A stretch of DNA of 64,000 nucleotides from Patescibacteria group bacterium (GCA_023484045.1 JAMDAA010000018.1:4-64003), one strand, 5' to 3'; counted from the first letter of the stretch, positions 20,012-38,377 are shown. Translations and numbers: made by a program. The notes: a model not told the origin generated them from the sequence alone.

Positions 20012-20281
20012 TTACAACTTTTTTAATAGTGCTTTATCTCCTTTAATTAAAGCTTCTTTTTTAGATCGCGACCAACTCTTTAATTGATATTCTCTTTGCA
20101 TTGCTTCTTTTCTTGAATTATAAGTTTCTGAGTAAGCCAATTCAAAAGAGTAAAAATTCCTAATATATTTTGCGGATTTCGAATTTTTAGCTTTATGCTC
20201 TTTCAGTCTTTTCTTTAAATTATTAGTTTGTCCAATATATAAAGTGTTTGAAGAGGTTCGAAGAATATAGACGTAGAACAT
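20012..20281 (-). CDS. GIY-YIG nuclease family protein (small, homing-endonuclease-like), copy 1
   Basis: 'MFYVYILRTSSNTLYIGQTNNLKKRLKEH' GIY-(10)-YIG motif; 89 aa. Confidence 0.8.
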   Translation of the reverse strand: MFYVYILRTSSNTLYIGQTNNLKKRLKEHKAKNSKSAKYIRNFYSFELAYSETYNSRKEAMQREYQLKSWSRSKKEALIKGDKALLKKL

Positions 20282-20450
20282 GGTTCGACTACGCGCTCAC
20301 CACACTCGACTCAAGTGCTATAGCCATGAGCGAACGAAGTGAGTCGAATGGCTGCTGGGCTTGGATTCCCCGCCTGCGGTCGCCTGAGGCGACAGCCGAT
20401 GGCGGGCAGGGAACCAAAATAAACGGATCCCCGCCTTGCCAAAGCCTGAG

Positions 20451-20521
20451 CTGCGGGACATGGATTCGAACCATGATACTGGGATCCAAAGTCCCATGTC
20501 CTACCATTAGACGATCCCGCA
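20451..20521 (-). tRNA. tRNA-Gln (anticodon TTG)
   Basis: manual cloverleaf: acceptor TGCGGGA/TCCCGCA, 3-bp D stem, anticodon stem TGGGA/TCCCA with loop CTTTGGA, T arm CATGG-TTCGAAT-CCATG. Confidence 0.8.
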
Positions 20522-20676
20522 GCACAAACTTCAGCGATGGCGGGCAGGCAAAGTCCCGCCTGCGGCCTACCATTAGACGACCCAGCAATACTCCTTAATG
20601 ATACCAAATTAGGCTTCGCGCTTCAATCCGATCAACATATATTGACTTAGTTTGATAGCTGTGTTTTAATCTGAAC

Positions 20677-21450
20677 ATGGACCAGGAACAAAACAAAATA
20701 GAGGAAAAGGAAGGGAAACAGGAAAACAAAAATTATGTCAAAATTCCGACACAGCTTTTTATATTTATAGGACTGGCTGTATTATTAATTATAATTTTAA
20801 TCGTCGGATTTTATCTTGGTTCAAATTACGGAAAAAATAATCAAAAAAGCGCACAACCAACTCCTGTTACGAAAGTCTCTCCGACGATTCAAGTAACACT
20901 GACGTCGACTCAAATTACACCAACTGTGTCTTTGCCCGAAAGTTCAAATCCAAACGTAAAAAGATTTATATCAGACATTTTGGGGATTTCGTTTACATAC
21001 CTTGAGAATCAGGACAACGGGAAAATATTAGCAAAAGAAGTCGGAAACAAAGTTTATGTTTATCCTTCAAATCTCCCTGAAACAACCGGACAATACGTAG
21101 AGGTAATGAGTAAAGACAAAAATAATACGCTCGAGCAGGCGCTCAGAAAATCGATTTTAAAAGGTTATTCCCAAGCTAATTGTCTTTTAAAACCGGTTAA
21201 TTTAAATAATGGCAATCCAGATTATGTTACGATCGAAATCGTCGTCCCGATAACCGATAATGATGATTTGTCAACGATCGATGAAAAGGCAAAAAAATGT
21301 CCGCCAAAATACACAGCGACTAATGGACAAGCCTATTTTCTGGAAGATAAAAATCATCCCGATAGAATGCTTTTCTTTTCGATCGGTCAATACGCGATAA
21401 TGTCCGAAGGCGGCAAAACGTGGCAGGAAACTATAAAAATATTTAAATAA
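20677..21450 (+). CDS. hypothetical membrane-anchored protein (N-terminal TM, extracytoplasmic)
   Basis: 257 aa ORF, TM helix residues ~25-47, Cys pair near C-terminus. Confidence 0.45.
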   Translation: MDQEQNKIEEKEGKQENKNYVKIPTQLFIFIGLAVLLIIILIVGFYLGSNYGKNNQKSAQPTPVTKVSPTIQVTLTSTQITPTVSLPESSNPNVKRFISDILGISFTYLENQDNGKILAKEVGNKVYVYPSNLPETTGQYVEVMSKDKNNTLEQALRKSILKGYSQANCLLKPVNLNNGNPDYVTIEIVVPITDNDDLSTIDEKAKKCPPKYTATNGQAYFLEDKNHPDRMLFFSIGQYAIMSEGGKTWQETIKIFK

Positions 21451-21453
21451 AAA

Positions 21454-21702
21454 TTATTTTAAGTAAACTAGTGTTCCTTCTTTGGCTTTTTGATTAATTT
21501 TTATTCCGACTTCGTCGCCAGACTTTCCGGCTTCGATCTGTGCATGTTCGACTTGCATCGATTCGACAACCTGCTCGAAAGTGTTATCGCCTTTAACAAA
21601 TTTGATTTTATCTCCAACCTTTAAAGGTTTTGTGAGTTTTATGATCGCGACTCCGACTTTATCGTAATAATGCGTTACTTTACCCAATGCGTCTTTATCC
21701 AA
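21454..21702 (-). CDS. small beta-barrel protein (EF-Tu domain-2 / KOW-like)
   Basis: 82 aa; strong SD 'gaggaggtgaaac' 8 nt upstream; 'GDKIKFVKGDNTFEQVVESMQVEH..IEAGKSGDEVGIKI' resembles translation-factor beta-barrel domain. Confidence 0.4.
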   Translation of the reverse strand: MDKDALGKVTHYYDKVGVAIIKLTKPLKVGDKIKFVKGDNTFEQVVESMQVEHAQIEAGKSGDEVGIKINQKAKEGTLVYLK

Positions 21703-21847
21703 AAAGTTTCACCTCCTCTCGCTAGAAACTCTTAACGAGTTTCATCGAGTATTAGAGTTTCTTGCGTCCGCCTTAAAACGCTCCGTGAGCCGTGTACGAA
21801 TAGTACAAGAAGACGAACGGCAAGTTTAGGCGGGCATATCAATAATA

Positions 21848-22417
21848 TTATTTTCGCCAGTACAAACCTATTATCTGTGCCTGATCGATTATGTGTCCCG
21901 TCATCGCCTTTTCGATTTCCGACCTTCGGGGCGCGCTTTTTAGATTCAACATCGTGTCCAAAGCGAATAATTTGAATACATAGTGATGAGCACCACTTGG
22001 TGGACACGGGGCAACATAACCTGCGTTCCCGATCGACGTTTTTCCTTCATACGCGCCTTTTGACGTAGAATTTTCCTGAATTTCTCTGACCGAGGGATTG
22101 ATATCGTAAACAACCCAATGAGTAAATGTTCCGCTCGGTGCGTCCGGGTCTTCGACAAATAAAACAAAACTTTTAGTATTTTGCGGCACATCTGAAATTA
22201 CTAGCGGGGGATTAATACCGCGTCCGTCACAAGAATATTGAACGGGTAAATTTGAGTTATCCTGAAAAGCAGGACTAGTAATTTTCATATTTGTTTTCTG
22301 TAGATTTTGAGTTTCTGAACTTTCTTTATTAATTATAGAACCAAAATAAAATTTTACAATAAGAAGGATTACAAAAATTAAGAGAAGAAAAACACCAATT
22401 AAAATTACGCGTTTCAT
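21848..22417 (-). CDS. YbhB/YbcL family phosphatidylethanolamine-binding (PEBP) protein, membrane-anchored
   Basis: 'DPDAPSGTFTHWVVYDI', 'GYVAPCPPSGAHHYVFKLFALD' PEBP signature. Confidence 0.8.
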   Translation of the reverse strand: MKRVILIGVFLLLIFVILLIVKFYFGSIINKESSETQNLQKTNMKITSPAFQDNSNLPVQYSCDGRGINPPLVISDVPQNTKSFVLFVEDPDAPSGTFTHWVVYDINPSVREIQENSTSKGAYEGKTSIGNAGYVAPCPPSGAHHYVFKLFALDTMLNLKSAPRRSEIEKAMTGHIIDQAQIIGLYWRK

Positions 22418-22420
22418 TAC

Positions 22421-22487
22421 GAGGTGAGCGGGTGACCGTACTTCGCTCGAACCTATATAAGTATATCACGTCAGAATTAATATCACA
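22421..22487. repeat. dispersed repeat module B, copy 1 (ggtgaccgtacYtYgctcgaacc ... gtatatcacgYcagaattaat)
   Basis: near-identical to 25927..26019, partial copy at 25375..25415. Confidence 0.6.
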
Positions 22488-22543
22488 GCTAAATGCCTTA
22501 AAAAAGCATTTTGCAAGTAAAAAGCTTTAAGAAAATCAAATTG

Positions 22544-23560
22544 TCAAAGTTTCCTTACGGTAACATCTTTTAGGTACTGATTTTGGAAATTTGTTTTATC
22601 TCCAATTTTAGCTTTACCATCAGAAACAAATCTCACTGATAAAGACTTCTGATATTTATTTGATAATCCTTGTACAAGCCGTAAAATTTGAGCAACTCTT
22701 TGAGGATCCTCATTAATACCAATAGGATAAGTGTCAATTCCTAAACCGGAATGTAAAGATAAAAATACATTTCTTTCTACAAAAAAATTCCCTTGTTCAT
22801 ATTCTTCAGCTAATTCGAAATCCTCAAGACAGGGCAACATTAAACCGCACAAGCCAACTGGTTTAGGATTATGTTTTTTGAGAAATTCTGTTATTTGTAT
22901 GTATGTATCTGTAGTTACTGATTGATCGAAGGAGAAGCCAAGTCTTTTTATGAAATTTACTAAACTTCCTTTTCCATCAAATATAGGCGCAATCGAAGAA
23001 TCAATGCCTAGAAAATCAGGATGACTACCAAACATTTTATACAATTTATCCCAACTCGCTTTAACTTTTTGCAACCACTCATCCAGAGTTGTGCAGCCTT
23101 CTGAAAGATCGGTTGCCTGCAGGCCTATCGCAAATCCGTTTCTTTCATATGCCGACGAAGGAAAATAGGGACTTGATGGTTTATTGTTAAACACATACGC
23201 AAAATTAAATGTTAAACCGGGCTTATTTTTTAATAGTTCAAATAAAACTTGACTGTGAGAAGCGCCTATTGATTCGGTTGTAAGATCAATGTTAAAAGAT
23301 ACCGTCTCGGTTTCATAAAAATCTGGTAAATTATTTAAAGTTTGCTGAAGTAATAATGGACCTACACCCAAAAGAATAGTCATATCACCAATACGATCTT
23401 CTAATTCTCTTGGATTTTTAAACGGAGAACAAATTCTTCTTGTTTGCACTTCATATCCCTGTTCGGTTATTTTCGCAGCTAACTCATTAACCTTGCTAAC
23501 CGCTTGCTGATCGGGTGTACTTGTAAAATAACAGACCGATCTGACCACTTCATTGCTCAT
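22544..23560 (-). CDS. hypothetical protein (338 aa)
   Basis: long ORF, AT-rich codon usage consistent with host; no domain recognised. Confidence 0.45.
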   Translation of the reverse strand: MSNEVVRSVCYFTSTPDQQAVSKVNELAAKITEQGYEVQTRRICSPFKNPRELEDRIGDMTILLGVGPLLLQQTLNNLPDFYETETVSFNIDLTTESIGASHSQVLFELLKNKPGLTFNFAYVFNNKPSSPYFPSSAYERNGFAIGLQATDLSEGCTTLDEWLQKVKASWDKLYKMFGSHPDFLGIDSSIAPIFDGKGSLVNFIKRLGFSFDQSVTTDTYIQITEFLKKHNPKPVGLCGLMLPCLEDFELAEEYEQGNFFVERNVFLSLHSGLGIDTYPIGINEDPQRVAQILRLVQGLSNKYQKSLSVRFVSDGKAKIGDKTNFQNQYLKDVTVRKL

Positions 23561-23686
23561 GGTTTATTGTCCCAGATTTTAAATAATCTTTATTTTCCCA
23601 ATGTTTTTCGCCATAATAATTCGCCCAGGTTCCTTAGCCGATAATTTGAGCAGGTTTTTGGACAACCTAATAGATTTAAATGATTT

Positions 23687-24520
23687 CTATTTACTTTCAA
23701 TAAGTTTTAGCTCTTTTGCATTTTTCTTTGTTATTACCTTTTTACCACTTTTTGATTCAATTTGCCTTCTGGCATTTCCAGCAATAGTTCCGCCTTCTTT
23801 AGCAACTTTTCTATTCTCTGGAAAGGTTTTTGGTTTACGTTTTTGAGAAATTTCTGTAGTAGCGGTTTCTGCCAACATATTAAGAACCAGTTCTAAATTT
23901 GTCATGTTATCCCGCAGGTTTTCTTTCTTCATTCCTTTGAGATTTTTATACTGTTTCGTGGTCATGCCTGTCCAAGCAATAGTAATATCGTCTGTTAAAA
24001 TGGCAAATTCGCTGGTTTCTTTTACTCCTCGCATTTCCCATTCATCCGTTAGAGCTTTCCTTATCTCAATACTTTTTAGGCGTTGATTGATCCAATCTTT
24101 ACTATAACCTTTTCTTAGATATGTTTGTAAGGCACGGTTAATTGCTAATTCGGGATCATGGGCTTCTTCGATACGCTCATATCCAACTCGAGCTAGCCAT
24201 AATTTAAAAGGCTCTGCATTAGGGGATGGAATAGATTGGATTATACGAAGCATGACTTCGGTATCGGCCACGTCTGTTAGATAAAACTTTCCATCAGCTG
24301 CCTGCATTTTTAGTTGTCCGATTTTTTCGGACAACTCACTTCCTTCCATCTTAAGCTTCCTCTTCAAATCATCCCAATACTTCCTAGGCCTTGAGGTTTG
24401 TGCTAAAACCTCCACTACGTCTACAACTGAAAAATACCACTTCTCCTCTTTGTCATTCCAGTGGCGACGGATCCTTCTCCCCTCAAAAATGGCAATTTTG
24501 GAAACCTTAGTCACAGCCAT
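23687..24520 (-). CDS. Bro-N domain protein (phage antirepressor-like N-terminal domain)
   Basis: N-terminal 'IAIFEGRRIRRHWNDKEEKWYFSVVDVVEVL' fits the Bro-N consensus; Lys-rich C-terminus. Confidence 0.65.
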   Translation of the reverse strand: MAVTKVSKIAIFEGRRIRRHWNDKEEKWYFSVVDVVEVLAQTSRPRKYWDDLKRKLKMEGSELSEKIGQLKMQAADGKFYLTDVADTEVMLRIIQSIPSPNAEPFKLWLARVGYERIEEAHDPELAINRALQTYLRKGYSKDWINQRLKSIEIRKALTDEWEMRGVKETSEFAILTDDITIAWTGMTTKQYKNLKGMKKENLRDNMTNLELVLNMLAETATTEISQKRKPKTFPENRKVAKEGGTIAGNARRQIESKSGKKVITKKNAKELKLIESK

Positions 24521-25220: not shown

Positions 25221-25486
25221 AAGGTCCGATTCTTGCCTCACGGTATGTTTTTCTTGAGGCTAGCAAAATTCCTCTAAAAATTTAGGCTCGAACCCTTCGG
25301 CAAACTCAGGGCTGTAGCTAGAAAATGTTGCTTTGAAGGGTAAAATTGGAAGGTTTCAAAAACCATTTCGGTCTGGAGCCGGTGACCGTACTTTGCTCGA
25401 ACCTGCGAGGTTTAATTACTCCAGATCTAATTTTACAACTTAATGTTCTTAAAGCCCATATAAAAATTAAAAGCTTTACTGATTTT

Positions 25487-25894: not shown

Positions 25895-25926
25895 TAATGT
25901 AATTTTCTATACATTTCTGTCACTTT

Positions 25927-26019
25927 TGGAGCTGGTAACCGTACCTCGCTCGAACTCGCCTCGCTTCGCGGTCGAAGCGGGCCTATCAAAGTATATCACG
26001 CCAGAATTAATCCTACAGT
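25927..26019. repeat. dispersed repeat module B, copy 3 (full)
   Basis: see 22421..22487. Confidence 0.6.
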
Positions 26020-26054
26020 TAGTTACCCTTAAAGAACATTTAAAGATTAAAGTT

Positions 26055-26399
26055 TTATTGGGTACCAAAAGCTGGTTGATTAACTATTATGGCTTTGAAT
26101 GTACCCTTCATTTCGTATTTAGTTCCTTTTTCTACATAACAAACATCACCGACATTTAGTGTAACTTCCTCATTATTGAATACCAAAATTAAATTTCCCT
26201 CAAGAACATAATAAATCCGATTGTAATAAGCTGTCTCTTTTTCGTAATAATCTGTGGCTTCTGTTGTGGCCAAGGAAACATCTTTGGAAATATCTTTAGT
26301 AATAAAGCTTATTGCGATTTTATTGTCGGCAATTTTTCTTATTGTTACCTCGGACTTTCTAACAACTTTAAACATGTTTATAATTTTCTCCTTCCCCAA
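26055..26399 (-). CDS. cupin domain protein
   Basis: 'YYVLEGNLILVFNNEEVTLNVGDVCYVEKGTKYEMKG' cupin motifs. Confidence 0.65.
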   Translation of the reverse strand: MGKEKIINMFKVVRKSEVTIRKIADNKIAISFITKDISKDVSLATTEATDYYEKETAYYNRIYYVLEGNLILVFNNEEVTLNVGDVCYVEKGTKYEMKGTFKAIIVNQPAFGTQ

Positions 26400-26667
26400 G
26401 GGTTCTTTTTAAAGCTTTCTTGAGATTGTCTCTTCCAAACCCGCTTTTTAGAAAAACTTCGCGAGCTTTTGCGTCTTTTTCGTTGATAAAATATTCATAA
26501 TGAACAAGCTTAAGCGGTCTTCTGTTGGCTGTGGAACTTACTTCGCCTCGAGCATGTCTCAAAAGTCGATCTTTTAAATCAGCAGTATAACCAGTGTAAA
26601 ACTTTTTGTCTTTAAGACTAATAAGATTGTACACGTAGTATTTATTATTAGAACGTCTAACGTTCAT
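26368..26667 (-). CDS. GIY-YIG nuclease family protein, copy 3
   Basis: 'YYVYNLISLKDKKFYTGYTADLKDRLLRH' GIY-YIG motif; 99 aa. Confidence 0.75.
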   Translation of the reverse strand: MNVRRSNNKYYVYNLISLKDKKFYTGYTADLKDRLLRHARGEVSSTANRRPLKLVHYEYFINEKDAKAREVFLKSGFGRDNLKKALKRTLGEGENYKHV

Positions 26668-26741
26668 TAACTTTATATAATGATTTGCCCAGTCTGACTG
26701 GGCTCCTCGTCATCCTCGGTGAAACCGAGTTTGACTCGGTG

Positions 26742-26813
26742 AGCGGTGGACCGGATTCGAACCGGCGACATCTTCCTTGGCAAGGAAGCATTCTACCACT
26801 GAATTACCACCGC
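26742..26813 (-). tRNA. tRNA-Gly (anticodon GCC)
   Basis: manual fold: acceptor GCGGTGG/CCACCGC, anticodon stem CTTCC/GGAAG with loop TTGCCAA, T arm GCCGG-TTCGAAT-CCGGT. Confidence 0.8.
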
Positions 26814-28451: not shown

Positions 28452-28885
28452 TCGTTTACTCTGAACGAACATTGTTCCGTTTCACGGGATGCCTTGAACA
28501 CTTAAACCCTCTGCATTGTGTCGAAGCGGTGAATCGAACACCGATAACGTGTTCTTCAGACACGCGCCTTGACCACGTTGGCAACTTCGACAGATTCGAC
28601 TCCGCTCACTGTCTAGCGGAATCAATCAGGCTCCATGCTAATTCGTATGGTCAACCCTGAGCCCGTCGAAGGGTGACCACGTTGGCAACTTCGACAATCA
28701 ACTAATTATACCAAATGAACTCAAAAATTCCTATACGAAGAGGGAAGAGAAATACATGTCTCATAAGGAGTATCCTTATATGCGTAAACATCTGATCGCA
28801 CAGGGATACTCCTTGTTGAATTTGTTGAATTATTTTATCCCTTCGTCCCAAAAATTTCCCAAATTTTTGGTATACTAACCCAAAT

Positions 28886-32238: not shown

Positions 32239-32354
32239 CAAACAGAATGGGTGCGGACGAGAGGACTTTCTTCGACTTCGCTCAGAATAAACTTCTCGTC
32301 CTCTCTTATCCTTCCGTTCAACAAACTCAAGCAACCCTGAGCTCGCCGAATGGG

Positions 32355-32438
32355 TGCGGACGAGAGGACTCGAACCTCCACGCTTTTTAGGGCACAGCCA
32401 CCTCAAGGCTGCGTGTATACCAGTTTCACCACGTCCGC
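32355..32438 (-). tRNA. tRNA-Leu (anticodon GAG), long variable arm
   Basis: manual fold: acceptor GCGGACG/CGTCCGC, anticodon stem CAGCC/GGCTG loop TTGAGGT, 16-nt variable arm. Confidence 0.8.
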
Positions 32439-32523
32439 ATGTAAACATTATATCAAAAAAGAGACAAGAAAATAATTATTTAGCATTTAGCGTCAGTCAC
32501 ATTGCTTCACTTATTTCATATTT

Positions 32524-33301
32524 CACCCCTGGGGTGATCTAGCTTGGCACCCCAGCAAGGATTTTATATTTTAGATATTTATTCAATAATCATTTTTTTT
32601 ATTAAACCAAGATTTCTTTGATAATCGACTTGATCAGCAACAAACTCAAAATATTTTTCTTTAGATTTGAACATACCGAGTAAAAAATCGGAGAAAACAA
32701 ACCTGTTAATGTTTACGTCTACATACCAAGAAAGTGAACTCCAAGGATAAGAAGCTAAGTATTTAAATTCGATAAGAAAAGAGGTAACAGGGTTTAAATG
32801 GATATATCGGGAAAGATGCAAAAATTCTTCATCGGTTTCTACCCATCTTGCTTTAAAAGAGTTTTCGAACAAAGTACCATGACGACCGTTTATTAGATTA
32901 TGGTTTTTGGCAAAACTGTTTTGAAAATTTGAAACAAACCTTAAAATACCACTATCTTGAAGTTGTTTAAGAAGAAAGTGGTAATGGTTAGGCATCAAAA
33001 CAAAAGCATAAATTTCAACTAAAGGGGTTTTACCCTTAATATTTATTGCATATTCTTCCCTAAGATTTCTTGGGAGTGTTTTAAATTTTGAATATCTTAA
33101 TTCTTGAGAAAAACGATAGTAGTCAATAATATCAAGAGCTTTATTTAAGGCTTTTTTATTAGCAAAAATTTCTTCCTTGCCAACTGAACGATTAAACACA
33201 TGGTATATTTCATTTGATGCGAAAATGAGATTTCTTCGAGGCATAAAATAAATTTATTATGAATTTCCTGGAGTGTCAATAGTCAAACACCCCAGGGGTG
33301 T
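32524..33301 (-). mobile_element. REP-like palindrome / RAYT-like transposase / REP-like palindrome unit
   Basis: CACCCC-T-GGGGTG at 32524..32536 and ACACCCC-A-GGGGTGT at 33287..33301 bracket the gene. Confidence 0.55.
32579..33244 (-). CDS. IS200-like Y1 (HUH) transposase, RAYT-like, paralog 2
   Basis: 'MPNHYHFLL' HUH motif, 'SRYIHLNPV'; ~35-40% identical to 5820..6491 product. Confidence 0.75.
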   Translation of the reverse strand: MPRRNLIFASNEIYHVFNRSVGKEEIFANKKALNKALDIIDYYRFSQELRYSKFKTLPRNLREEYAINIKGKTPLVEIYAFVLMPNHYHFLLKQLQDSGILRFVSNFQNSFAKNHNLINGRHGTLFENSFKARWVETDEEFLHLSRYIHLNPVTSFLIEFKYLASYPWSSLSWYVDVNINRFVFSDFLLGMFKSKEKYFEFVADQVDYQRNLGLIKKMIIE

Positions 33302-33322
33302 CTTTGTCTTTATCTTATCTAG

Positions 33323-34120: not shown

Positions 34121-34211
34121 CCTTTGACTTGACAAACCTATAGTTGCTTGATATAATACCCCACAGATCCTAAGGTATGTCGCTAAAACCGCCATACGTT
34201 AGGATTTTTTT

Positions 34212-34790
34212 ATGGCCCAGCAATTTGCTGGACAAAAATTTATGAAAAGAATATTACTTATAGTAATGTCCTTAATAATCCTTTCACTTCCCCAAAAAAT
34301 ATACGCTGATCAAATCCCCGCTAAATCCACATCTGCTAACCTTATAACAACTCAAGTAAAAATTGAGAAAGACAATCGTGTGGCGATTTTAAAAGAATTC
34401 TTGGAAACATACAATTCTCCGCTTGCCGAAAACTCTGAGGATTTTGTTAAGTCGGCGGATAAATACGATATCGACTGGAAATTGGTCGCGGCGATATCGG
34501 GTGTTGAATCGACGTTTGGTAAGCAAATTCCCAATAATTCCTATAACGGTTGGGGGTGGGGAGTTTATGGAGATAACGTAATTTACTTTAAGTCGTGGAG
34601 TGACGCGATCGAAACGATCTCAAAAGGACTTAGAGAAAACTATATAGACCGCGGCGCGACAAATATTTATGCGATCGGACGAATCTACGCCGCGTCACAA
34701 ACGTGGGCGCAAAGGGTCGAATATTTTATGAACCGGATCAAAGACTATGAGCTAAGAAATCCGGAAGATACTCTTTCGCTCTCGATCTGA
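34212..34790 (+). CDS. membrane-anchored peptidoglycan-hydrolase-like protein, paralog B
   Basis: 'LVAAISGVESTFG...YNGWGWG' same motif as 33518..34120; N-terminal TM. Confidence 0.4.
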   Translation: MAQQFAGQKFMKRILLIVMSLIILSLPQKIYADQIPAKSTSANLITTQVKIEKDNRVAILKEFLETYNSPLAENSEDFVKSADKYDIDWKLVAAISGVESTFGKQIPNNSYNGWGWGVYGDNVIYFKSWSDAIETISKGLRENYIDRGATNIYAIGRIYAASQTWAQRVEYFMNRIKDYELRNPEDTLSLSI

Positions 34791-34852
34791 ATAAGATATA
34801 ATAAGCTTTGGAGAGGCGGGTGTCTCGATGTAATATCGGGATGGGCGGTCTC

Positions 34853-34936
34853 GCCCAGGTGGCGAAATTGGTAGACGCGATAGGTTTAGGACCTATTGTC
34901 CATAAGGACTTGGGAGTTCGAGTCTCCCCTTGGGCA
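34853..34936 (+). tRNA. tRNA-Leu (anticodon TAG), long variable arm
   Basis: manual fold: acceptor GCCCAGG/CTTGGGC, anticodon stem ATAGG/CCTAT loop TTTAGGA, T arm GGGAG-TTCGAGT-CTCCC. Confidence 0.8.
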
Positions 34937-35023
34937 CAGTCCTCCCTGTCCTCCGAAGCCTCTCGCCACGCGAAGCCTTGGCGAAGTGCGGTGGCGAAGG
35001 AGGATCCCGGCTACTCGAAATTT

Positions 35024-35896
35024 ATGATATCAGCAATCGAAAAATTACAAGACGGAACAATAAAACTGACTCTTACGATCCCTTTTTCTGACGTTACCAA
35101 GACAAAAGAAGAAGTGATCGGTTTATTTGTTGCAGAATCCGAACTACCGGGGTTTAGAAAAGGAAAAGCTCCAAAAAAGCTCGTCGAGGAAAAAATCGAC
35201 CAAGAAAAAGTTCGGGAAGAAATTCTAAAACGATTATTACCAAAGGCTTATTCAGAAGCAGTCAAAGATCACAATTTGAGACCGATTATCAATCCGCAAA
35301 TACATATTCATCAGATTGAAGAGAGTAAAGACTGGATCTTTGTTGCGCTAACCTGCGAAGCTCCGGAAATAAATTTAGGCAATTATAAAGACGAAATTAA
35401 AAAATTAACTGCTAAAAGTAAAATTATTGTTCCGGACAGAGAACCCTTCGACAAGCTCAGGGCAAGACCCTTCGACAAAGCTCAGGGCAAGCAGGAAGTA
35501 AATTTCGACGAAATCGTAAAAGAACTTTTGACAAACGCAACCGTTAAAATCCCAAAAATTATTGTCGATCAGGAGACCGACAGACTACTTGCACAAACTC
35601 TGGATGAAGTAAAAAAACTCGGTTTAACTCTTGAACAATATCTCTCTTCAACCCAAAGAACTCCGCAGGACTTAAGAGCAGAATACGTGAAAAAAGCCGA
35701 AGACGATATAAAACTCGAGTTTGTTCTTCAAAAAGTAGCACAGGATGAAAAAATATCGGTTTCGGAAAAAGAAATCGATGAGGCGATCCAAAAGGCAAAA
35801 GACGAAAACGAGCGAAAAAATCTTGAAGCAAACAGATATTTACTCGCAAGTATTTTAAGACAGCAAAAAACACTTGATTTCCTAAGGAATTTGTGA
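35024..35896 (+). CDS. tig: trigger factor, short form lacking the PPIase domain
   Basis: ribosome-binding signature 'GFRKGKAP' in N-terminal domain plus C-terminal chaperone-arm-like region; only ~290 aa; start set at MISAIEKL (35024) because the upstream ORF extension runs through tRNA-Leu(TAG). Confidence 0.7.
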   Translation: MISAIEKLQDGTIKLTLTIPFSDVTKTKEEVIGLFVAESELPGFRKGKAPKKLVEEKIDQEKVREEILKRLLPKAYSEAVKDHNLRPIINPQIHIHQIEESKDWIFVALTCEAPEINLGNYKDEIKKLTAKSKIIVPDREPFDKLRARPFDKAQGKQEVNFDEIVKELLTNATVKIPKIIVDQETDRLLAQTLDEVKKLGLTLEQYLSSTQRTPQDLRAEYVKKAEDDIKLEFVLQKVAQDEKISVSEKEIDEAIQKAKDENERKNLEANRYLLASILRQQKTLDFLRNL

Positions 35897-35912
35897 TAGG
35901 TTTGAGGCTAAC

Positions 35913-36560
35913 ATGAAAGCCAGAAAAGATAAGGCACACTCAAAGCAACTTTTAAACCAGAACCTCATCGAAGCAGGAAGAGACCTCGGCGACGATGTCG
36001 CAAAAACGATGTTTAGTGATCTTGCCCTCGGATCGGCATCTGACGCCTGGGAACAGTTTTTCGGAAGCGGAAAATCCGAAAAGGACAACAAACAATTAAG
36101 CGGAGACCTCTCGGAAGGAGAAGAATTAAATCTTAAAAAGACAAAAGAGCCCAAAAAAACCGTTCGGCCCGATATTTTACCAAACATCGATTACCGGCGC
36201 GAAATTATCCACGCGGAAACACTCGGACAAAACGAAGTAAGCCGCGAGATTACTGTTAAAATTCAGGAAATCAGGGTAGAAATCCAAAAACTCACTCAGA
36301 CTTCTAAAGAACTTCAAGTGCAATTTAAAGATGTTGTAGTTGCCCAGCTTCCAAAAAAAGCCGGAAAATACCATTTATTCTTTTTCGAGTGGGTATTGTC
36401 TGCGATAAAAATCGCGCGACAAAAGGTTGAAGAATCACAATCTTGGCTCAATACTTTCCAAAATAAAAAATCCAAGAGAAATTACTGGGCGATGGAGAAA
36501 AAACACGGCACAAGCTTCAGTCTTTCAAACGAGCGTGTTGTCTCAACGCAGACAGGATAA
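35913..36560 (+). CDS. hypothetical protein
   Basis: 215 aa ORF 16 nt after tig; no recognisable domain. Confidence 0.4.
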   Translation: MKARKDKAHSKQLLNQNLIEAGRDLGDDVAKTMFSDLALGSASDAWEQFFGSGKSEKDNKQLSGDLSEGEELNLKKTKEPKKTVRPDILPNIDYRREIIHAETLGQNEVSREITVKIQEIRVEIQKLTQTSKELQVQFKDVVVAQLPKKAGKYHLFFFEWVLSAIKIARQKVEESQSWLNTFQNKKSKRNYWAMEKKHGTSFSLSNERVVSTQTG

Positions 36561-36562
36561 CT

Positions 36563-36850
36563 ATGTCTATTGCCGAACAACCAAATCTGAAAGGTTCATT
36601 CGAAGCCGCCCGACCCACAGCGATTCAGAAAGAACGAAGTCTCGAAGTGCTAAGTTTCTGCAGAGAATTGGAACAGAAAGGACTCTGTATTATCGTGGAA
36701 GGAGATCACGAGTACTGCCGACAAATGACTGGAAAGATAGGAACTAATGGAAAACAAGAAACTATTCTGACAGGAGGAATATTTTTACCAGGCGAGCTGA
36801 CAGACGAGACAACAAGAACCGTAATTTTTAGAAAGATCTTTGACTTTTAA
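36563..36850 (+). CDS. hypothetical protein
   Basis: 95 aa ORF 2 nt after the previous stop (operonic). Confidence 0.35.
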   Translation: MSIAEQPNLKGSFEAARPTAIQKERSLEVLSFCRELEQKGLCIIVEGDHEYCRQMTGKIGTNGKQETILTGGIFLPGELTDETTRTVIFRKIFDF

Positions 36851-36978
36851 CAAAATAGTTTTATAATTAAAAAAATGAACAAATCTTTACTTATCCTTAA
36901 CCTTATTGTCCTTATCCGGGACGGTATTGGTTTGGGAGAGCAAAGATGACCTGAACAAACTTAAATAGAAAAAAAATA

Positions 36979-37005
36979 ATCTCCCAAACCGAGGGAGATT
37001 TTTTT
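36979..37005 (+). terminator. rho-independent terminator
   Basis: ATCTCCC-AAACC-GAGGGAGAT stem-loop followed by TTTTTTT. Confidence 0.6.
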
Positions 37006-37048
37006 ATGGTTCGGCAGGCTCACCATAAATCGGAAAGGGGGTGAAAAT

Positions 37049-37255
37049 ATGAGCTGTGAGATGAGAAATTTGCAAAGAGGATTACAGCAAAATAAAGAAA
37101 CATTGACACGATTACAATCAAAAATAGTATTCTTAAAGATGACTAGACAAAAGGGTGATCAAGAATATGGAGAAACGTTGCGTGCTTTAAGAAAAGCGGC
37201 AAAAAGTCAAAAACATACCCGAAGAGAGTACCATTCTCGAGCCGGTAGGTATTAA
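37049..37255 (+). CDS. hypothetical basic coiled-coil protein
   Basis: 68 aa ORF with 'gggggtgaaaat' SD; lies in a GC-elevated island. Confidence 0.3.
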   Translation: MSCEMRNLQRGLQQNKETLTRLQSKIVFLKMTRQKGDQEYGETLRALRKAAKSQKHTRREYHSRAGRY

Positions 37256-37293
37256 ACACAAAAAGTTAATTTATGATAAAATACTGAATTTAT

Positions 37294-37854
37294 ATGGTTG
37301 AAGCAGATCTGATTGAGCTATCATGTCAACCCGAACGTAGGGTTTTAATAGGAAGAGACGACTATGCAGTAGTTCCTGTATTAAGTGACCAAGCAAATGC
37401 TTTTTTGCTTGAGTCACAAGAAAGAATTGCTTTGGTAAAAAAACATGCTCGCGCATTAGAATTTAAATTTAATAATAATTCTGCCGAAGACTTGCACAAC
37501 CAGTTTCGGGGAGGACGCCCGAAATCAGCCTATTTTACATTGCTTGACGGAAGACTTATTGTCGAGTGGGGAGAAATTAGCGCAGACGGCAATGCAAAAC
37601 TCCACGATTATTTAAATCGCAACCTTGATTACAATAGAAGGGTAAAATCGGGCGGAGTATTGCGATCAGGTCACATAGGAGCTATTCACTTCAGGAAATG
37701 TCCGGCAGAAATTAGACTTGCGCTTATCGATTCTCTTTGGAGCGGACAACAAATCGTAGAATCTTCTCCGGAATATAAAATTACCACAACGCTCTTACAT
37801 AATGGAATTTTACCTATAACTACGGATGCTATCCCCGCAATCCCGTCTGAATAA
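37294..37854 (+). CDS. hypothetical protein (compositionally atypical)
   Basis: 186 aa ORF; local GC ~43% vs ~25-35% in flanking genes; GC-rich codon choices. Confidence 0.4.
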   Translation: MVEADLIELSCQPERRVLIGRDDYAVVPVLSDQANAFLLESQERIALVKKHARALEFKFNNNSAEDLHNQFRGGRPKSAYFTLLDGRLIVEWGEISADGNAKLHDYLNRNLDYNRRVKSGGVLRSGHIGAIHFRKCPAEIRLALIDSLWSGQQIVESSPEYKITTTLLHNGILPITTDAIPAIPSE

Positions 37855-37932
37855 TTGTTTTATCAGCCTCGATCTGCTAAAATTTAACTCAGAGTGAGGA
37901 GGATCGAAGATCCTGAGTAACGAAGTTGTGAT

Positions 37933-37991
37933 GGACTCTTAGCTCAGTTGGTTAGAGCGGTCGCCTTAGGCGACAGGTCGCAGGTTCGAAT
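37933..37991 (+). pseudogene. tRNA-Val-like 5' fragment (acceptor-5', D arm, aberrant anticodon arm, T stem-5' and T loop; 3' part replaced)
   Basis: identical to tRNA-Val(GAC) at 38237 over positions 1-25 and 44-60 but with anticodon arm GTCGCC-TTA-GGCGAC and no 3' acceptor strand. Confidence 0.5.
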
Positions 37992-38000
37992 AGTACATAA

Positions 38001-38246
38001 ATGTGGTACGTATATGTTTTGAAAAGTATAGTAAATTCGAGATTTTATACAGGATCAACAAATAACTTGGAAAGAAGATTAAAAGAACATAATTCAGGGC
38101 ATAGTAAATATACAAGGTTAACTAAACCTTTTGAAATTATATACCAAGAAACTTACAAAAAGAGACTTGAGGCACGGAGGAGAGAATTATTTTTAAAAAC
38201 TGGTAAGGGAAGAGAGTTATTGAAAAGTTTAATCATGGACTCTTAG
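38001..38246 (+). CDS. GIY-YIG nuclease family protein, copy 2 (embedded between tRNA-Val fragment and intact tRNA-Val)
   Basis: 'MWYVYVLKSIVNSRFYTGSTNNLERRLKEH'; stop codon TAG lies at positions 8-10 of the downstream tRNA. Confidence 0.75.
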   Translation: MWYVYVLKSIVNSRFYTGSTNNLERRLKEHNSGHSKYTRLTKPFEIIYQETYKKRLEARRRELFLKTGKGRELLKSLIMDS

Positions 38247-38310
38247 CTCAGTTGGTTAGAGCGCGTCGTTGACATCGACGAGGTCGCAGGTTCGAATCCT
38301 ACAGAGTCCA
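38237..38310 (+). tRNA. tRNA-Val (anticodon GAC)
   Basis: manual fold: GGACTCT-TA-GCTC-AGTTGGTTA-GAGC-G-CGTCG-TTGACAT-CGACG-AGGTC-GCAGG-TTCGAAT-CCTAC-AGAGTCC-A (one C-A mismatch in T stem). Confidence 0.75.
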
Positions 38311-38377
38311 CTTAGCTAAGTTTGTTAGAGCGGTCGCCTTAGGCGACAGGTCACAAGTTCGACTCTTGTCGAGCCCA
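38311..38377 (+). pseudogene. tRNA-like 3' fragment with degenerate D arm, same aberrant anticodon hairpin, distinct T arm and CGAGCCC-A 3' end
   Basis: 'GTTAGAGCGGTCGCCTTAGGCGACAGGTC' shared with 37951..37979; no matching 5' acceptor strand. Confidence 0.4.

What the first reader, a model, noticed from the sequence alone, without database searches (positions are those of the whole stretch)
20012..38377. Three paralogous small GIY-YIG nuclease genes, each located immediately 3' of a tRNA gene on the same strand
GIY-YIG ORFs at 20012..20281(-), 26368..26667(-) and 38001..38246(+) are 80-99 aa and share the 'YVY.L......YTG.T.NL..RL..H' core. Each follows a tRNA within 10-170 nt: tRNA-Gln(TTG) 20451..20521, tRNA-Gly(GCC) 26742..26813, and the tRNA-Val 5' fragment 37933..37991. 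Free-standing GIY-YIG genes of this size are typical homing-endonuclease-like selfish elements. Consistent targeting of tRNA 3' flanks implies tRNA-directed insertion and a tRNA-associated mobile gene family in this genome.
Basis: partly seen in the sequence, partly recalled or inferred. Interest (0 to 1): 0.7.

Follow-up and report, generated by a model that had tools for sequence, protein, structure and literature searches.

The report
Tiny nuclease genes embedded in tRNA genes
Three very small GIY-YIG nuclease genes in this candidate-phyla-radiation (CPR) bacterium belong to a large family that sits inside or against tRNA genes, leaving half-copies of the tRNA marked by a characteristic hairpin, which looks like an undescribed kind of tRNA-targeting selfish DNA.

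Summary
The three 81-99 aa GIY-YIG ORFs are real and are the only ones in the window. All three touch a same-strand tRNA. The geometry of the third was misread. GIY3 (38001-38246) lies between a 59-nt pseudo-copy of tRNA-Val(GAC) and the intact tRNA-Val(GAC), and its stop codon is tRNA nucleotides 8-10.

The proteins are minimal UPF0213/Slx1-like nucleases, not I-TevI-like enzymes.

Among 180 homologous ORFs in 161 sequences, 31 end at a same-strand tRNA 5' end (1.5 expected) and 39 start within 250 nt of a tRNA 3' end (5.6 expected).

ORFs that lie upstream of a tRNA are preceded by a copy of that tRNA (positions 1 to about 57). In that copy the anticodon arm is precisely replaced by a clade-specific hairpin, GTCGCC-NNN-GGCGAC in the GIY3 clade. 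ORFs that lie downstream of a tRNA are often followed by a T-loop-to-3'-end remnant.

Protein clades track tRNA identity: GIY1 with Gln, GIY2 with Gly, GIY3 with Val/Ile/Gly/Arg.

Distant relatives with the same synteny have an unoccupied tRNA-Val(GAC).

Best reading: these are long-lived selfish cassettes that insert into tRNA loops with compensating partial duplication and are transcribed with the tRNA. The closest analogue is phage T4 SegB. Cleavage activity, the mode of transfer and the role of the hairpin are inferred, not shown.

The parts
37933..37991 (+). Pseudo-copy of tRNA-Val(GAC), positions 1 to about 59. Its anticodon arm is replaced by the hairpin GTCGCC-TTA-GGCGAC (37960-37974). 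It ends in the T-loop, 9 nt before the GIY3 start codon.
   Evidence: 29-nt exact repeat D1; alignment to the tRNA.
38001..38246 (+). GIY3, an 81-aa UPF0213/Slx1-like GIY-YIG ORF. Its stop codon TAG (38244-38246) is nucleotides 8-10 of the following tRNA.
   Evidence: The same stop-in-tRNA arrangement occurs in 13 of 31 ORFs that lie upstream of a tRNA.
38237..38311 (+). Intact tRNA-Val(GAC), the functional copy downstream of GIY3.
   Evidence: ARAGORN; Rfam tRNA, 67.3 bits.
38312..38378 (+). Second tRNA-like copy (positions about 8-76). It has the same hairpin (38333-38347) in place of the anticodon arm and lacks a 5' acceptor strand.
   Evidence: 31 bits, partial match; repeat D4.
20566..20587 (-). 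Outer 5' fragment (positions 1-22) of a disrupted tRNA-Gln-like gene, upstream of the intact tRNA-Gln. A promoter-like site lies at 20626-20598.
20450..20521 (-). Intact tRNA-Gln(TTG), nested between the outer 5' fragment and a matching 3' acceptor strand (CCCAGCA, 20359-20353).
20349..20449 (-). GC-rich spacer. It holds the direct repeat CCTGCCCGCCATCG (also found at 20535-20551), the hairpin GTCGCC-TCA-GGCGAC (20393-20379) and the outer tRNA 3' end ...CCCAGCAGCCA.
   Evidence: (repeats D6, D13).
20283..20348 (-). Long leader hairpin of the GIY1 clade. The 5' arm TTCGACTCACTTCGTTCGCTCA pairs with ...GCGTAGTCGAACC just before the ATG.
   Evidence: MFE -24 kcal/mol, z -2.35; the same element occurs in more than 20 loci.
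20012..20281 (-). GIY1, an 89-aa GIY-YIG ORF of the tRNA-Gln-linked clade.
19982..20010 (-). Solitary extra copy of the 3' hairpin arm (CCCTGAGTGAGCGAAGCGAATCGAAGGGA), directly after the GIY1 stop codon.
26741..26813 (-). tRNA-Gly(GCC). A strong promoter-like site (TTGACA-17-TATTAT) lies at 26853-26825.
26651..26740 (-). Spacer between tRNA-Gly and GIY2 with three 3-nt-loop hairpins: ACCGAGT-CAA-ACTCGGT (26740-26724), GCCCAGT-CAG-ACTGGGC (26703-26687) and GAACGT-TAG-ACGTTC (26665-26651, overlapping the start codon).
   Evidence: Homologous hairpins with covarying outer stems occur in L167, L176 and L183.
26368..26667 (-). GIY2, a 99-aa GIY-YIG ORF of the tRNA-Gly-linked clade.
28592..28695 (-). 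ORF-less relic: a 5' duplicate (positions 1-22) of tRNA-Phe plus an insert of about 80 nt carrying CCCTTCGACGGGCTCAGGG, directly upstream of the intact tRNA-Phe (28518-28591).
32248..32350 (-). ORF-less relic: an insert of about 85 nt with hairpin-arm motifs, followed by a 20-nt duplicate of the tRNA-Leu(GAG) 3' end (positions 70-89). It lies directly after the intact tRNA-Leu(GAG) (32351-32439).

Best explanation
The three genes belong to three clades of a CPR-wide family of minimal (80-100 aa) UPF0213/Slx1-like GIY-YIG nuclease cassettes that live inside tRNA transcription units.

Shown:
1. A cassette is inserted at a loop of a tRNA gene, usually the T-loop and in some clades the anticodon loop or D-loop. 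The tRNA is kept whole by a partial duplication.
2. In one architecture the order is [dead 5' copy, positions 1 to about 57] - ORF - [intact tRNA], as for GIY3. In the mirror architecture it is [intact tRNA] - spacer - ORF - [dead 3' remnant]. GIY1 and GIY2 lie downstream of their tRNA in this second orientation.
3. Wherever the dead copy spans the anticodon region, that arm is replaced by a clade-specific GC hairpin with a 3-nt loop.
4. The ORFs lie on the tRNA strand, directly against the tRNA.
5. No promoter-like site separates tRNA-Gly from GIY2, and the candidate promoter at the GIY1 locus lies upstream of the tRNA.

Inferred:
1. The ORF is co-transcribed with the tRNA. In 13 of 31 ORFs upstream of a tRNA the stop codon lies in tRNA nucleotides 8-10, so RNase P processing and translation should compete.
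2. The nuclease, probably acting as a dimer, recognises the inverted-repeat arms of tRNA genes. Phage T4 SegB similarly recognises the T-psi-C stem-loop motif.
3. The break stimulates recombination between a cassette-bearing allele, or a circular or linear copy of it, and a naive tRNA gene, using the conserved tRNA sequence as portable homology.
4. The hairpin heterology determines which of the two resulting copies keeps the anticodon.
5. The hairpin may also be the cognate binding site of the protein.

The cassettes are old and persistent, and they change tRNA target only occasionally.
For: Association:
- 31 ORFs end at a same-strand tRNA 5' end (1.5 expected, maximum 6 in 300 permutations).
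- 39 ORFs start at most 250 nt after a same-strand tRNA (5.6 expected).
- Only 2 lie next to an opposite-strand tRNA.

Insertion signature:
- 23 of 31 ORFs upstream of a tRNA have a significant upstream copy of the very tRNA that follows them.
- ORFs downstream of a tRNA have 3' remnants running from the T-loop to the 3' end (L003, L127-129, L137, L158, L096, L123).
- In the window, 4 of 8 tRNAs carry such partial duplicates, two of them without an ORF.

Hairpin:
- GTCGCC-NNN-GGCGAC occurs 35 times in 0.94 Mb (my estimate of the chance expectation is about 0.1). Nearly all copies sit exactly at the anticodon-arm position of dead tRNA copies.
- 25 of 31 ORFs upstream of a tRNA have a GC hairpin 12-26 nt before the ATG, against 8% in control windows.
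- Other clades carry other, perfectly complementary arms.

Mobility:
- GIY3-clade proteins sit at Val-GAC, Val-CAC, Ile-GAT (inside rRNA operons), Gly-TCC, Gly-GCC and Arg-GCG.
- GIY2 homologs sit at Gly-GCC, Gly-TCC and Gly-CCC, with unrelated neighbouring genes.
- Syntenic relatives have a tRNA-Val(GAC) with no cassette.
- Decayed ORF fragments occur in L004, L027, L056 and L076.
- The copy number of a hairpin-bounded 70-nt unit differs among otherwise identical contigs.

Precedent and expression:
- Promoter-like sites lie upstream of the tRNA, or of the outer pseudo-tRNA, and not between tRNA-Gly and GIY2.
Against: - No nuclease activity or target is known for any of these proteins.
- They lack any DNA-binding module, so site specificity is hypothetical.
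- The intact tRNA in an occupied locus still carries the presumed target, and self-immunity is unexplained.
- Synonymous sites are saturated (pS 0.65-0.9) while pN is 0.11-0.33. This shows long residence and strong purifying selection, and gives no sign of recent transfer.
- The GIY1 and GIY2 clades are very faithful to one amino-acid class of tRNA, which vertical inheritance would also produce.
- The empty tRNA-Val site comes from distant relatives (about 48% identity in the neighbouring protein) and the tRNA is on the other strand there.
- No remnant or duplicate was detected at the window's GIY2 locus.
- The GIY1 leader hairpin looks like an RNA element, with UUCG tetraloops and a Shine-Dalgarno sequence in the 3' arm. 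This fits a regulated host gene as well as a parasite.
- Outside CPR the family is a single-copy gene in an operon with a putative methyltransferase gene (NPPY motif, assigned by eye).
Confidence: 0.55

Rival explanations
1. The genes are resident host genes, not mobile elements. In CPR the UPF0213 nuclease is a conserved, vertically inherited passenger of tRNA operons. It acts on RNA, for example in processing or quality control of the neighbouring tRNA precursor or its hairpins. The partial tRNA copies are by-products of unrelated rearrangements.
For: - Strong purifying selection with saturated synonymous sites.
- GIY1 is linked to tRNA-Gln in 41 of 80 loci across many CPR phyla, and GIY2 is always found after tRNA-Gly.
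- The leader hairpins have RNA hallmarks: UUCG tetraloops, covarying stems and a Shine-Dalgarno sequence inside the stem.
- In Firmicutes the homolog sits in a conserved operon after a putative methyltransferase gene carrying an NPPY motif (assigned by eye, not scanned).
- Fusions of this family to COG4123 and TrmH methyltransferases are reported in PMC1564403.
Against: - The ORF lies inside a duplication of the tRNA in 23 of 31 upstream cases, and 3' remnants follow the ORF in downstream cases. That is an insertion signature centred on the ORF.
- One protein clade occupies Val, Ile, Gly and Arg tRNAs, including rRNA spacers.
- The neighbouring genes differ completely between loci.
- Syntenic relatives lack the gene at tRNA-Val.
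- Several paralogs occur per genome, alongside decayed copies.
Confidence: 0.2
2. The protein and its hairpin are a cognate pair in which the hairpin, not the tRNA, is the substrate. One version is a GIY-YIG counterpart of the REP/RAYT system, in which the nuclease spreads its own short palindromes into the hairpin tips of structured-RNA genes. Another version is a type-III-like toxin-antitoxin pair, with hairpin RNA upstream of a small nuclease. In either case tRNA genes are simply the preferred landing or expression sites.
For: - The hairpin arms are invariant within a protein clade while the 3-nt loop varies freely, and the arms differ between clades.
- The hairpin lies at a fixed 12-26 nt before the start codon.
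- The GIY3-clade hairpin also sits inside the 16S and 23S rRNA genes of L085, and at the junctions of a variable tandem unit.
- ORF-less hairpin relics occur at tRNA-Phe and tRNA-Leu in the window.
- An element of about 85 nt with hairpin arms is present in L161 and absent in L165 at the same site.
Against: - Hairpins are few per genome: 3 copies of the GIY3-type motif in 64 kb, all at GIY loci. REPs number in the hundreds.
- The long-hairpin arms are concentrated in the 250 nt upstream of the ORF and are not dispersed.
- No toxin-antitoxin or defence family matches.
- This reading does not by itself explain the tRNA duplications.
Confidence: 0.15
3. The cassettes are cargo of integrase-driven integrative elements, or are cis-mobilisable mini-elements. 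The direct repeats of tRNA ends are att sites made by a tyrosine recombinase acting in trans.
For: - Remnants running from the T-loop to the 3' end, and junctions in the anticodon loop or T-loop, resemble the sublocations used by tRNA-targeting integrases (established knowledge, recalled from memory).
- In several GIY1 loci 1.7-3.8 kb of other genes separate the intact tRNA-Gln from a remnant-plus-GIY1 unit.
Against: - The units are only about 300-400 bp and contain only the GIY ORF.
- No integrase-like ORF is evident between or beside the repeats in the window, and none in the gene tables of the loci returned with them.
- The architecture with the ORF upstream of the tRNA duplicates the 5' 57 nt, not the 3' end.
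- The hairpin substitution has no counterpart in att sites.
Confidence: 0.05

Closest known systems
Phage T4 SegB, a free-standing GIY-YIG homing endonuclease in the tRNA gene cluster (PMC2330249)
   Same: - It has a GIY-YIG catalytic domain.
- The gene sits among tRNA genes with no intron.
[quoted passage not shown]
- It promotes inheritance of itself together with the adjacent tRNA genes.
   Different: - SegB is a phage protein. From my own knowledge of Seg-family enzymes it is much larger and carries a separate DNA-binding region.
- It does not create partial tRNA duplications or hairpin-substituted copies.
- The proteins here are 81-99 aa bare UPF0213/Slx1-like domains in cellular CPR genomes.
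Prokaryotic Slx1-like / UPF0213 proteins (PDB 1ywl EF2693, 1zg2 BH0048; PMC1564403)
   Same: - They are the best sequence matches (E 3e-8 and 1.5e-7).
- They have the same minimal size, with no auxiliary domain and no conserved C-terminal Asn.
   Different: - The family is described as vertically inherited and repair-related, and as a single-copy gene in operons or fusions with methyltransferases.
- Searches show that operon arrangement in two Firmicutes.
- Here the family is multi-copy, linked to tRNA genes and flanked by tRNA duplications.
Free-standing endonuclease ORFs in fungal mitochondria that arrive with a replacement gene end and leave the resident end as a pseudogene (for example the Allomyces atp6 element), and the GC-rich hairpin elements of AT-rich mitochondrial DNA. 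Recalled from memory, not checked here.
   Same: - A GIY-YIG ORF is inserted in an essential gene.
- Gene function is rescued by a duplicated gene part.
- The genome is AT-rich and carries mobile GC-rich hairpins.
   Different: - The targets there are protein-coding genes in organelles.
- There is no tRNA cloverleaf logic and no precise arm-for-hairpin substitution.
tRNA-targeting integrative elements driven by tyrosine integrases (established knowledge)
   Same: - Insertion occurs in the anticodon loop or T-loop region.
- The tRNA is restored by an element-borne copy, and a displaced remnant is left as a direct repeat.
   Different: - There is no integrase.
- The elements are about 100 times smaller.
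- The 5' part of the tRNA can be the duplicated part.
- A nuclease is the only gene.
REP sequences and their RAYT transposases
   Same: Short GC-rich palindromes are associated with one small nuclease-type gene whose clade matches the palindrome sequence.
   Different: - RAYTs are HUH Y1 enzymes, and REPs are dispersed in hundreds of copies.
- Here the hairpins are few and sit at tRNA or rRNA hairpin positions.
- A RAYT-like ORF exists in the window (32579-33244) but is not adjacent to the GIY loci.

Membership tests
GIY-YIG nuclease superfamily (PF01541) | Match to the Pfam model above its gathering score | tested here: met
   68.8, 47.4 and 65.4 bits against a cut-off of 22.6.
GIY-YIG nuclease superfamily (PF01541) | Catalytic residues present: the GIY Tyr, the YIG Tyr, Arg, His and the metal-binding Glu | tested here: met
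   Y3/Y5, Y15-x-G17, R25, H29 and R63-E64 are invariant in the three proteins and align to 1ywl and 1zg2. Assignment to catalytic roles is by homology only.
Prokaryotic Slx1-like / UPF0213 | Closest relatives are UPF0213 proteins, and the protein is a stand-alone minimal domain | tested here: met
   The only PDB hits are 1ywl and 1zg2. The proteins are 81-99 aa with no second Pfam domain above its cut-off.
Prokaryotic Slx1-like / UPF0213 | Absence of the conserved C-terminal Asn that marks the UvrC/homing-endonuclease lineage (PMC1564403) | tested here: met
   There is no invariant Asn after E64 in alignment A1. This rests on three sequences only.
I-TevI/Seg-type GIY-YIG homing endonucleases | A C-terminal DNA-binding module (NUMOD, IENR1 or helix-turn-helix) joined to the catalytic domain | tested here: not met
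   The proteins end right after the catalytic domain. TIGR01453 scores 22-26 bits against a cut-off of 56 and matches only the N-terminal motif.
Homing endonuclease (functional class) | Site-specific cleavage of the allele that lacks the gene | not testable with these tools
   This needs purified protein and tRNA-gene substrates.
Homing endonuclease (functional class) | Occupied and empty alleles of the same site in related genomes | tested here: inconclusive
   An unoccupied tRNA-Val(GAC) exists in syntenic but distant relatives. No close-relative pair was found. The relatives found through the ABC ATPase gene next to tRNA-Gly/GIY2 share no synteny with the window.
Group I intron-encoded endonuclease in a tRNA gene | The ORF lies inside a group I intron that interrupts the tRNA | tested here: not met
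   Rfam finds only tRNAs in the window and no intron. The tRNA next to each ORF is uninterrupted.
Integrase-driven tRNA-integrating island | A tyrosine or serine recombinase gene within the element bounded by the tRNA repeats | tested here: not met
   The repeat-bounded units are about 300-400 bp and hold only the GIY ORF.
REP/RAYT system | An HUH Y1 transposase flanked by its REPs, with many dispersed REP copies | tested here: not met
   The nuclease is a GIY-YIG protein. The GIY3-type hairpin occurs 3 times in 64 kb, all at GIY loci.
Known anti-phage defence systems | Match to a PADLOC model | tested here: not met
   Only motif-length matches were found (E 1.6e-5 to 4e-3, about 25-40 residues each); GIY2 had none.

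The most novel reading that the evidence does not exclude
A bare 80-100 aa GIY-YIG domain plus a cognate 3-nt-loop hairpin forms a new type of structure-guided mobile element. The dimeric nuclease reads the inverted-repeat arms of cloverleaf genes. The cassette enters tRNA loops using tRNA sequence as universal homology arms. Its hairpin is written in place of native hairpins, namely the anticodon arms of the disabled tRNA copies and helix tips of 16S and 23S rRNA. This would be a GIY-YIG counterpart of REP/RAYT or of integrase-free tRNA islands. It would also give the widespread, function-unknown UPF0213 family a role.
Probability: 0.25. Interest if true: 0.85.

Novelty: new variant of a known kind. 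Interest (0 to 1): 0.72.

Why it matters
- CPR (Patescibacteria) genomes are about 1 Mb. I assume each tRNA is usually a single-copy gene; this was not checked here. A family of elements that repeatedly enters these essential genes and repairs the damage with a partial duplicate would be a distinctive way for selfish DNA to persist in streamlined genomes.
- It would give a testable function to the minimal Slx1-like/UPF0213 nucleases, whose role in bacteria is unknown.
- It would show that a catalytic domain with no DNA-binding module can be target-specific, perhaps by dimer recognition of tRNA arms.
- It would explain tRNA-like fragments and odd hairpins that tRNA and rRNA annotators miss or miscall in CPR genomes.
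- The precise arm-for-hairpin substitution has no described mechanism.

Tried and rejected
- **Exact look-ups:** the window's own proteins (the 186-aa neighbour and GIY3) are not on record. Only a 100%-identical entry from a 64,989-nt Patescibacteria MAG contig appeared, with no further context.
- **Empty-site search at GIY2:** homologs of the ABC ATPase gene next to tRNA-Gly were fetched at 74-77% identity, but the relatives share no synteny and have no tRNA-Gly there. This is uninformative.
- **Group I intron idea for the split tRNA-Val:** rejected. Rfam finds no intron and the tRNA is intact. The Patescibacteria tRNA-intron paper concerns position 35/36 introns and does not mention GIY-YIG.
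- **Phage origin:** 21 viral-contig homologs (36-63% identity) were found. None has a tRNA within about 2 kb of the match.
- **Defence-system idea:** no meaningful PADLOC match.
- **Recent horizontal spread as the reason for the roughly 80% identity of GIY2 homologs:** rejected, because synonymous sites are saturated.
- **Long hairpin arms as dispersed MITE-like (short, non-coding mobile) repeats around GIY genes:** rejected for the sampled loci. The arms are concentrated in the 250 nt before the ORF, although a few ORF-less copies exist.
- **Hammerhead-like reading of CUGAGCGA:** rejected by eye, because the core motif does not fit, and by the empty Rfam scan.
- **Literature:** seven full-text searches found no description of GIY-YIG genes embedded at CPR tRNA genes.

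Full report
**1. Observation**

ARAGORN finds eight tRNA genes in the window, all between 20.4 and 38.4 kb. Rfam confirms them and finds no other RNA family. They match Pfam GIY-YIG well above the cut-off and share the catalytic-type residues Y3/Y5, Y15-x-G17, R25, H29 and R63-E64. A six-frame HMM scan finds no other GIY-YIG ORF in the 64 kb.

GIY1 (20281-20012, minus strand) lies 168 nt after tRNA-Gln(TTG). GIY2 (26667-26368, minus strand) lies 73 nt after tRNA-Gly(GCC).

The third locus was misread. GIY3 (38001-38246) is followed by an intact tRNA-Val(GAC) at 38237-38311, and is overlapped by it. The ORF's stop codon TAG is tRNA nucleotides 8-10. The "5' fragment" at 37933-37991 is a copy of that same tRNA from position 1 to the T-loop. 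In it the 17-nt anticodon arm is replaced by the 15-nt hairpin GTCGCC-TTA-GGCGAC. A further tRNA-like copy with the same hairpin follows the tRNA at 38312-38378.

**2. Protein family**

The only solved relatives are the UPF0213 proteins EF2693 (1ywl) and BH0048 (1zg2). These are the "prokaryotic Slx1-like" minimal GIY-YIG domains of Dunin-Horkawicz et al. (PMC1564403).

There is no DNA-binding module. The group I intron endonuclease model TIGR01453 scores far below its cut-off. The three proteins are 32-51% identical to one another and fall in three separate clades.

**3. The association is general and specific**

A scan of species-representative genomes with the three-protein alignment, ranked by similarity to GIY1, returned 80 loci. 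Most are labelled Patescibacteria or a named candidate division; about 20 carry other labels. In 41 of them tRNA-Gln (TTG or CTG) lies upstream, almost always on the same strand, at 7 to 3757 nt. Almost no other tRNA type is the nearest one.

A metagenome scan with GIY3 returned 80 loci. Most homologs abut a same-strand tRNA. The ORF end is typically 0-30 nt before the tRNA 5' end, or overlaps it. The tRNA differs even among proteins 63-74% identical to GIY3: Val-GAC, Val-CAC, Ile-GAT, Gly-TCC, Gly-GCC and Arg-GCG. Further tRNAs occur at lower identity: Tyr, Lys, Gln, Ser, Leu and other Arg isoacceptors.

Over all 180 GIY ORFs in 161 sequences:

| Arrangement | Observed | Expected (300 permutations) | Maximum in permutations |
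|---|---|---|---|
| ORF ends at a same-strand tRNA 5' end | 31 | 1.5 | 6 |
| ORF starts at most 250 nt after a same-strand tRNA | 39 | 5.6 | 11 |
| ORF next to an opposite-strand tRNA | 2 | not computed | not computed |

After removing identical proteins the first two counts are 25 and 35.

GIY2 has 730 homologs at E <= 1e-8, and the top 120 are at least 71% identical. Every context fetched shows tRNA-Gly (TCC, CCC, or GCC in the window) directly upstream, with unrelated neighbouring genes.

A neighbour-joining tree shows that clades follow tRNA type and architecture:
- a clade downstream of tRNA-Gln, which contains GIY1;
- a clade downstream of tRNA-Ser;
- a clade downstream of tRNA-Cys;
- a clade upstream of tRNA-Lys;
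- a clade carrying the GTCGCC hairpin at Val, Ile and Gly tRNAs, which contains GIY3. Within it, Val-GAC is polyphyletic.

**4. Insertion anatomy**

For ORFs upstream of a tRNA, 23 of 31 testable loci carry, upstream of the ORF, a significant copy of the very tRNA that follows the ORF.

In the GIY3 clade the copy runs from position 1 to the T-loop. The segments on both sides of the anticodon arm match the cognate tRNA, including tRNA-specific variable-loop and T-stem bases. The arm itself is replaced by GTCGCC-NNN-GGCGAC. The loop varies (TTA, TTG, GCA, TAA, TGA, TCA, GAA, GGC, ACA) while the arms do not vary.

In other clades the ORF junction is in the anticodon loop or after the D-arm, and different perfect palindromes sit in the D-loop. 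Examples are CCGCC-TCA-GGCGG, CCTGCCTG-CCGG-CAGGCAGG, CCCCGC-TGA-GCGGGG and GGGACGT-TTG-ACGTCCC.

A GC-rich hairpin lies 12-26 nt before the start codon in 25 of 31 ORFs upstream of a tRNA, against 8% of control windows. In 13 of 31 the stop codon is the tRNA's T8-A9-G10.

For ORFs downstream of a tRNA the mirror image is seen. An intact tRNA is followed by a spacer, the ORF, and then a remnant from the T-loop to the 3' end (L003, L127-129, L137, L158, L052). In L096 and L123 the remnant is a longer copy that again carries a hairpin in place of the anticodon arm.

Nested forms also exist. L041 has a complete tRNA-Gln, flanked by a 12-bp stem, inside the D-loop of another tRNA-Gln. The window's GIY1 locus is of this nested kind: an outer 5' part at 20587-20566 and an outer 3' acceptor strand at 20359-20353, with the intact tRNA-Gln between them.

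In the window, 4 of 8 tRNAs have such partial duplicates. Two of them, at tRNA-Phe and tRNA-Leu-GAG, have no ORF and look like relics. No duplicate was detected at the window's GIY2 locus.

**5. The hairpins**

The exact motif GTCGCC-NNN-GGCGAC occurs 35 times in 0.94 Mb. My estimate of the chance expectation is about 0.1. It is absent from the 80 GIY1-clade loci.

Besides dead tRNA copies, the motif occurs in two other settings:
- inside the 16S and 23S rRNA genes of L085, whose internal spacer carries a GIY3-clade cassette before tRNA-Ile;
- at the junction of a 70-nt unit after tRNA-Val whose copy number is the only difference among four otherwise identical contigs.

GIY2-clade spacers carry two or three hairpins of the form [stem]-AGT-CWG-ACT-[stem']. 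The outer stems covary: GCCC/GGGC, GGGA/TCCC and GGCCA/TGGCC. Complementarity kept through sequence change argues for real pairing. Invariant loop-proximal arms within a clade argue for sequence-specific recognition.

GIY1-clade genes have a different, long leader hairpin right after the tRNA-Gln 3' end or its remnant:
- The 5' arm TTCGACTC... pairs with ...GAGTCGAAGGA, which contains the likely Shine-Dalgarno sequence.
- The apex is GGC-UAUA-GCC or GGCC-UUCG-GGCC.
- Folding z-scores are -2 to -4.7 in most loci.
- The arms are 10-20 times enriched in the 250 nt before the ORF.

UUCG tetraloops suggest that this leader acts as RNA.

**6. Expression**

Promoter-like sites lie upstream of tRNA-Gly (11 of 12 consensus positions) and upstream of the outer pseudo-tRNA-Gln. 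None lies between tRNA-Gly and GIY2. At the GIY1 locus the scan also flags a weaker 9-of-12 match that lies inside the tRNA-Gln gene itself.

By eye, a TTGTTT-17-TGcTAAAAT site lies about 45 nt before the pseudo-tRNA-Val; the scan did not call it.

Co-transcription with the tRNA is therefore inferred, not shown.

**7. Age and selection**

Within each clade pN is 0.11-0.33 while pS is 0.65-0.90, which is saturated. The proteins are under strong purifying selection and the copies are old. The roughly 80% identity of GIY2 homologs reflects constraint, not recent transfer. For comparison, the best relatives of the adjacent ABC ATPase are 74-79% identical.

**8. Empty sites**

The window's own genome is absent from the look-up collection apart from one identical protein record.

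Relatives with the same gene order (tRNA-Leu(TAG), trigger factor, DUF5660, and the 186-aa protein) carry tRNA-Val(GAC) nearby. There is no GIY ORF and no pseudo-copy in those loci. However, they are distant (about 48% identity in the neighbouring protein) and the tRNA is on the other strand.

Decayed GIY fragments next to tRNAs occur in L004, L027, L056 and L076.

**9. Interpretation**

What is shown:
- a CPR-wide family of minimal GIY-YIG genes placed on the tRNA strand, at tRNA loops, inside partial tRNA duplications;
- clade-specific hairpins;
- fidelity of each clade to a tRNA type, with occasional switches.

What is inferred:
- The nuclease targets tRNA-gene arms.
- It thereby stimulates recombination that copies the cassette into naive tRNA genes.

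One recombination scheme accounts for both architectures. Suppose a cassette carries a tRNA-homologous segment with the hairpin in place of the anticodon arm.
- If it recombines with a chromosomal tRNA on the 5' side of the hairpin, the result is [hairpin copy]-ORF-[intact tRNA].
- A mirror-image cassette crossing over on the 3' side gives [intact tRNA]-ORF-[hairpin copy or remnant].
- Crossovers on the wrong side would leave no functional tRNA and would be lost.

This scheme also explains why the ORF reads into the first 10 nt of the tRNA.

T4 SegB is a direct precedent. It is a GIY-YIG homing endonuclease in a tRNA cluster whose site includes the T-psi-C stem-loop motif.

Unexplained points:
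- how the intact tRNA escapes cleavage;
- how an 81-aa domain achieves specificity (a dimer on inverted-repeat arms is my guess);
- why the hairpin is so conserved, and how it reached the rRNA genes.

**10. Rivals**

- A resident host gene acting on RNA fits the purifying selection, the RNA-like leaders and the methyltransferase-linked operon seen in Firmicutes. It does not fit the ORF-centred duplications or the target switches.
- A hairpin-centred system (REP/RAYT-like, or toxin-antitoxin-like) fits the co-variation of protein and hairpin and the hairpins in rRNA. It does not fit the low copy number.
- Integrase-driven islands are unlikely, because the repeat-bounded units contain only the GIY ORF.

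**11. Novelty**

Seven full-text searches found no description of this arrangement. [quoted passage not shown] That observation is compatible with what is seen here.

I rate this as a new variant of a known kind: a free-standing GIY-YIG element that targets tRNA genes. The hairpin-substitution feature has no known counterpart.

Noticed in passing
L085:2488-2502 and L085:4989-5003: The GIY3-clade hairpin GTCGCC-NNN-GGCGAC sits inside the 16S (1354-2856) and 23S (from 3876) rRNA genes of a contig whose 16S-23S spacer carries a GIY3-clade cassette before tRNA-Ile. This suggests the hairpin can replace helix tips in functional rRNA genes.
   Followed up: partly
L081, L083, L084, L106 (about 3320-3460): Four otherwise identical metagenome contigs differ only in the copy number (1 or 2, plus a 19-nt partial copy) of a 70-nt unit after tRNA-Val. 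The unit consists of 21 nt of 3' flank, the hairpin, and tRNA positions 44-76.
   Followed up: partly
window:32579-33244 (-): A 221-aa ORF with a weak IS200-like Y1 transposase match (PF01797, 23.8 bits). HUH-like (NHYH) and Tyr motifs are visible by eye. It lies between tRNA-Leu(GAG) and tRNA-Leu(CAG) on their strand and resembles a REP-associated (RAYT) transposase. Its relation to the hairpins was not examined.
   Followed up: no
window:35443-35490 (+): Two tandem copies of the motif CCCTTCGAC(N)GCTCAGGG lie in frame inside the trigger-factor gene, encoding ...PFDKLRARPFDKAQGK.... The same motif family is found in the tRNA-Phe relic and in the GIY1 leader arms.
   Followed up: no
window:22426-22511, 25376-25404, 25929-26041: A repeat family of about 90 nt with three copies. 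On the minus strand each ends in a tRNA-3'-end-like GGTTCGAGC...GGTCACCCGCTC. The copies lie downstream of tRNA-Gly/GIY2 and bracket NUDIX, GrpB-like and Bro-N genes. They may be att-like remnants of islands, but similarity to tRNA-Gly is weak.
   Followed up: partly
L041:3700-4000: A complete tRNA-Gln(CTG), flanked by a 12-bp stem, is nested in the D-loop of a second, otherwise intact tRNA-Gln(CTG). This is followed by the GIY1-type leader and ORF.
   Followed up: partly
L161:about 4220-4320 vs L165:about 2220-2315: An element of about 85 nt with complementary end arms (CCTTCGAC...GTCGAAGG) is present 20 nt downstream of tRNA-Val(GAC) in L161 and absent at the same point in L165. This is a presence/absence polymorphism of an ORF-less element.
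   Followed up: partly
window:34938-35015 (+): A GC-rich long hairpin (CCTCCGAAGCC...GGCGAAGGAGG) fills the gap between tRNA-Leu(TAG) and the trigger-factor start codon.
   Followed up: no
L077:3238-4255 and L080:3268-4243: In two Firmicutes the UPF0213 homolog is a single gene directly after, and slightly overlapping, a methyltransferase-like ORF with an NPPY motif. By recall this looks like the yabA-yabB-yazA-yabC arrangement of Bacillus subtilis; the flanking ORFs were not scanned. No tRNA gene is nearby.
   Followed up: partly
window:23687-24520 (-): A 277-aa ORF with a Bro-N domain (PF02498), a phage-type protein, lies in the stretch between the repeat copies noted above.
   Followed up: no
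L073:about 3560-3760 and L075:about 3900-4000: Homologs of the GIY genes in a Brocadiaceae MAG and a Treponema MAG are also preceded by motifs of the form TTCGACAGGCTCA / CCCTGAGCCTGTCGAAGGG. The link between this hairpin arm and GIY genes may therefore extend beyond CPR.
   Followed up: no
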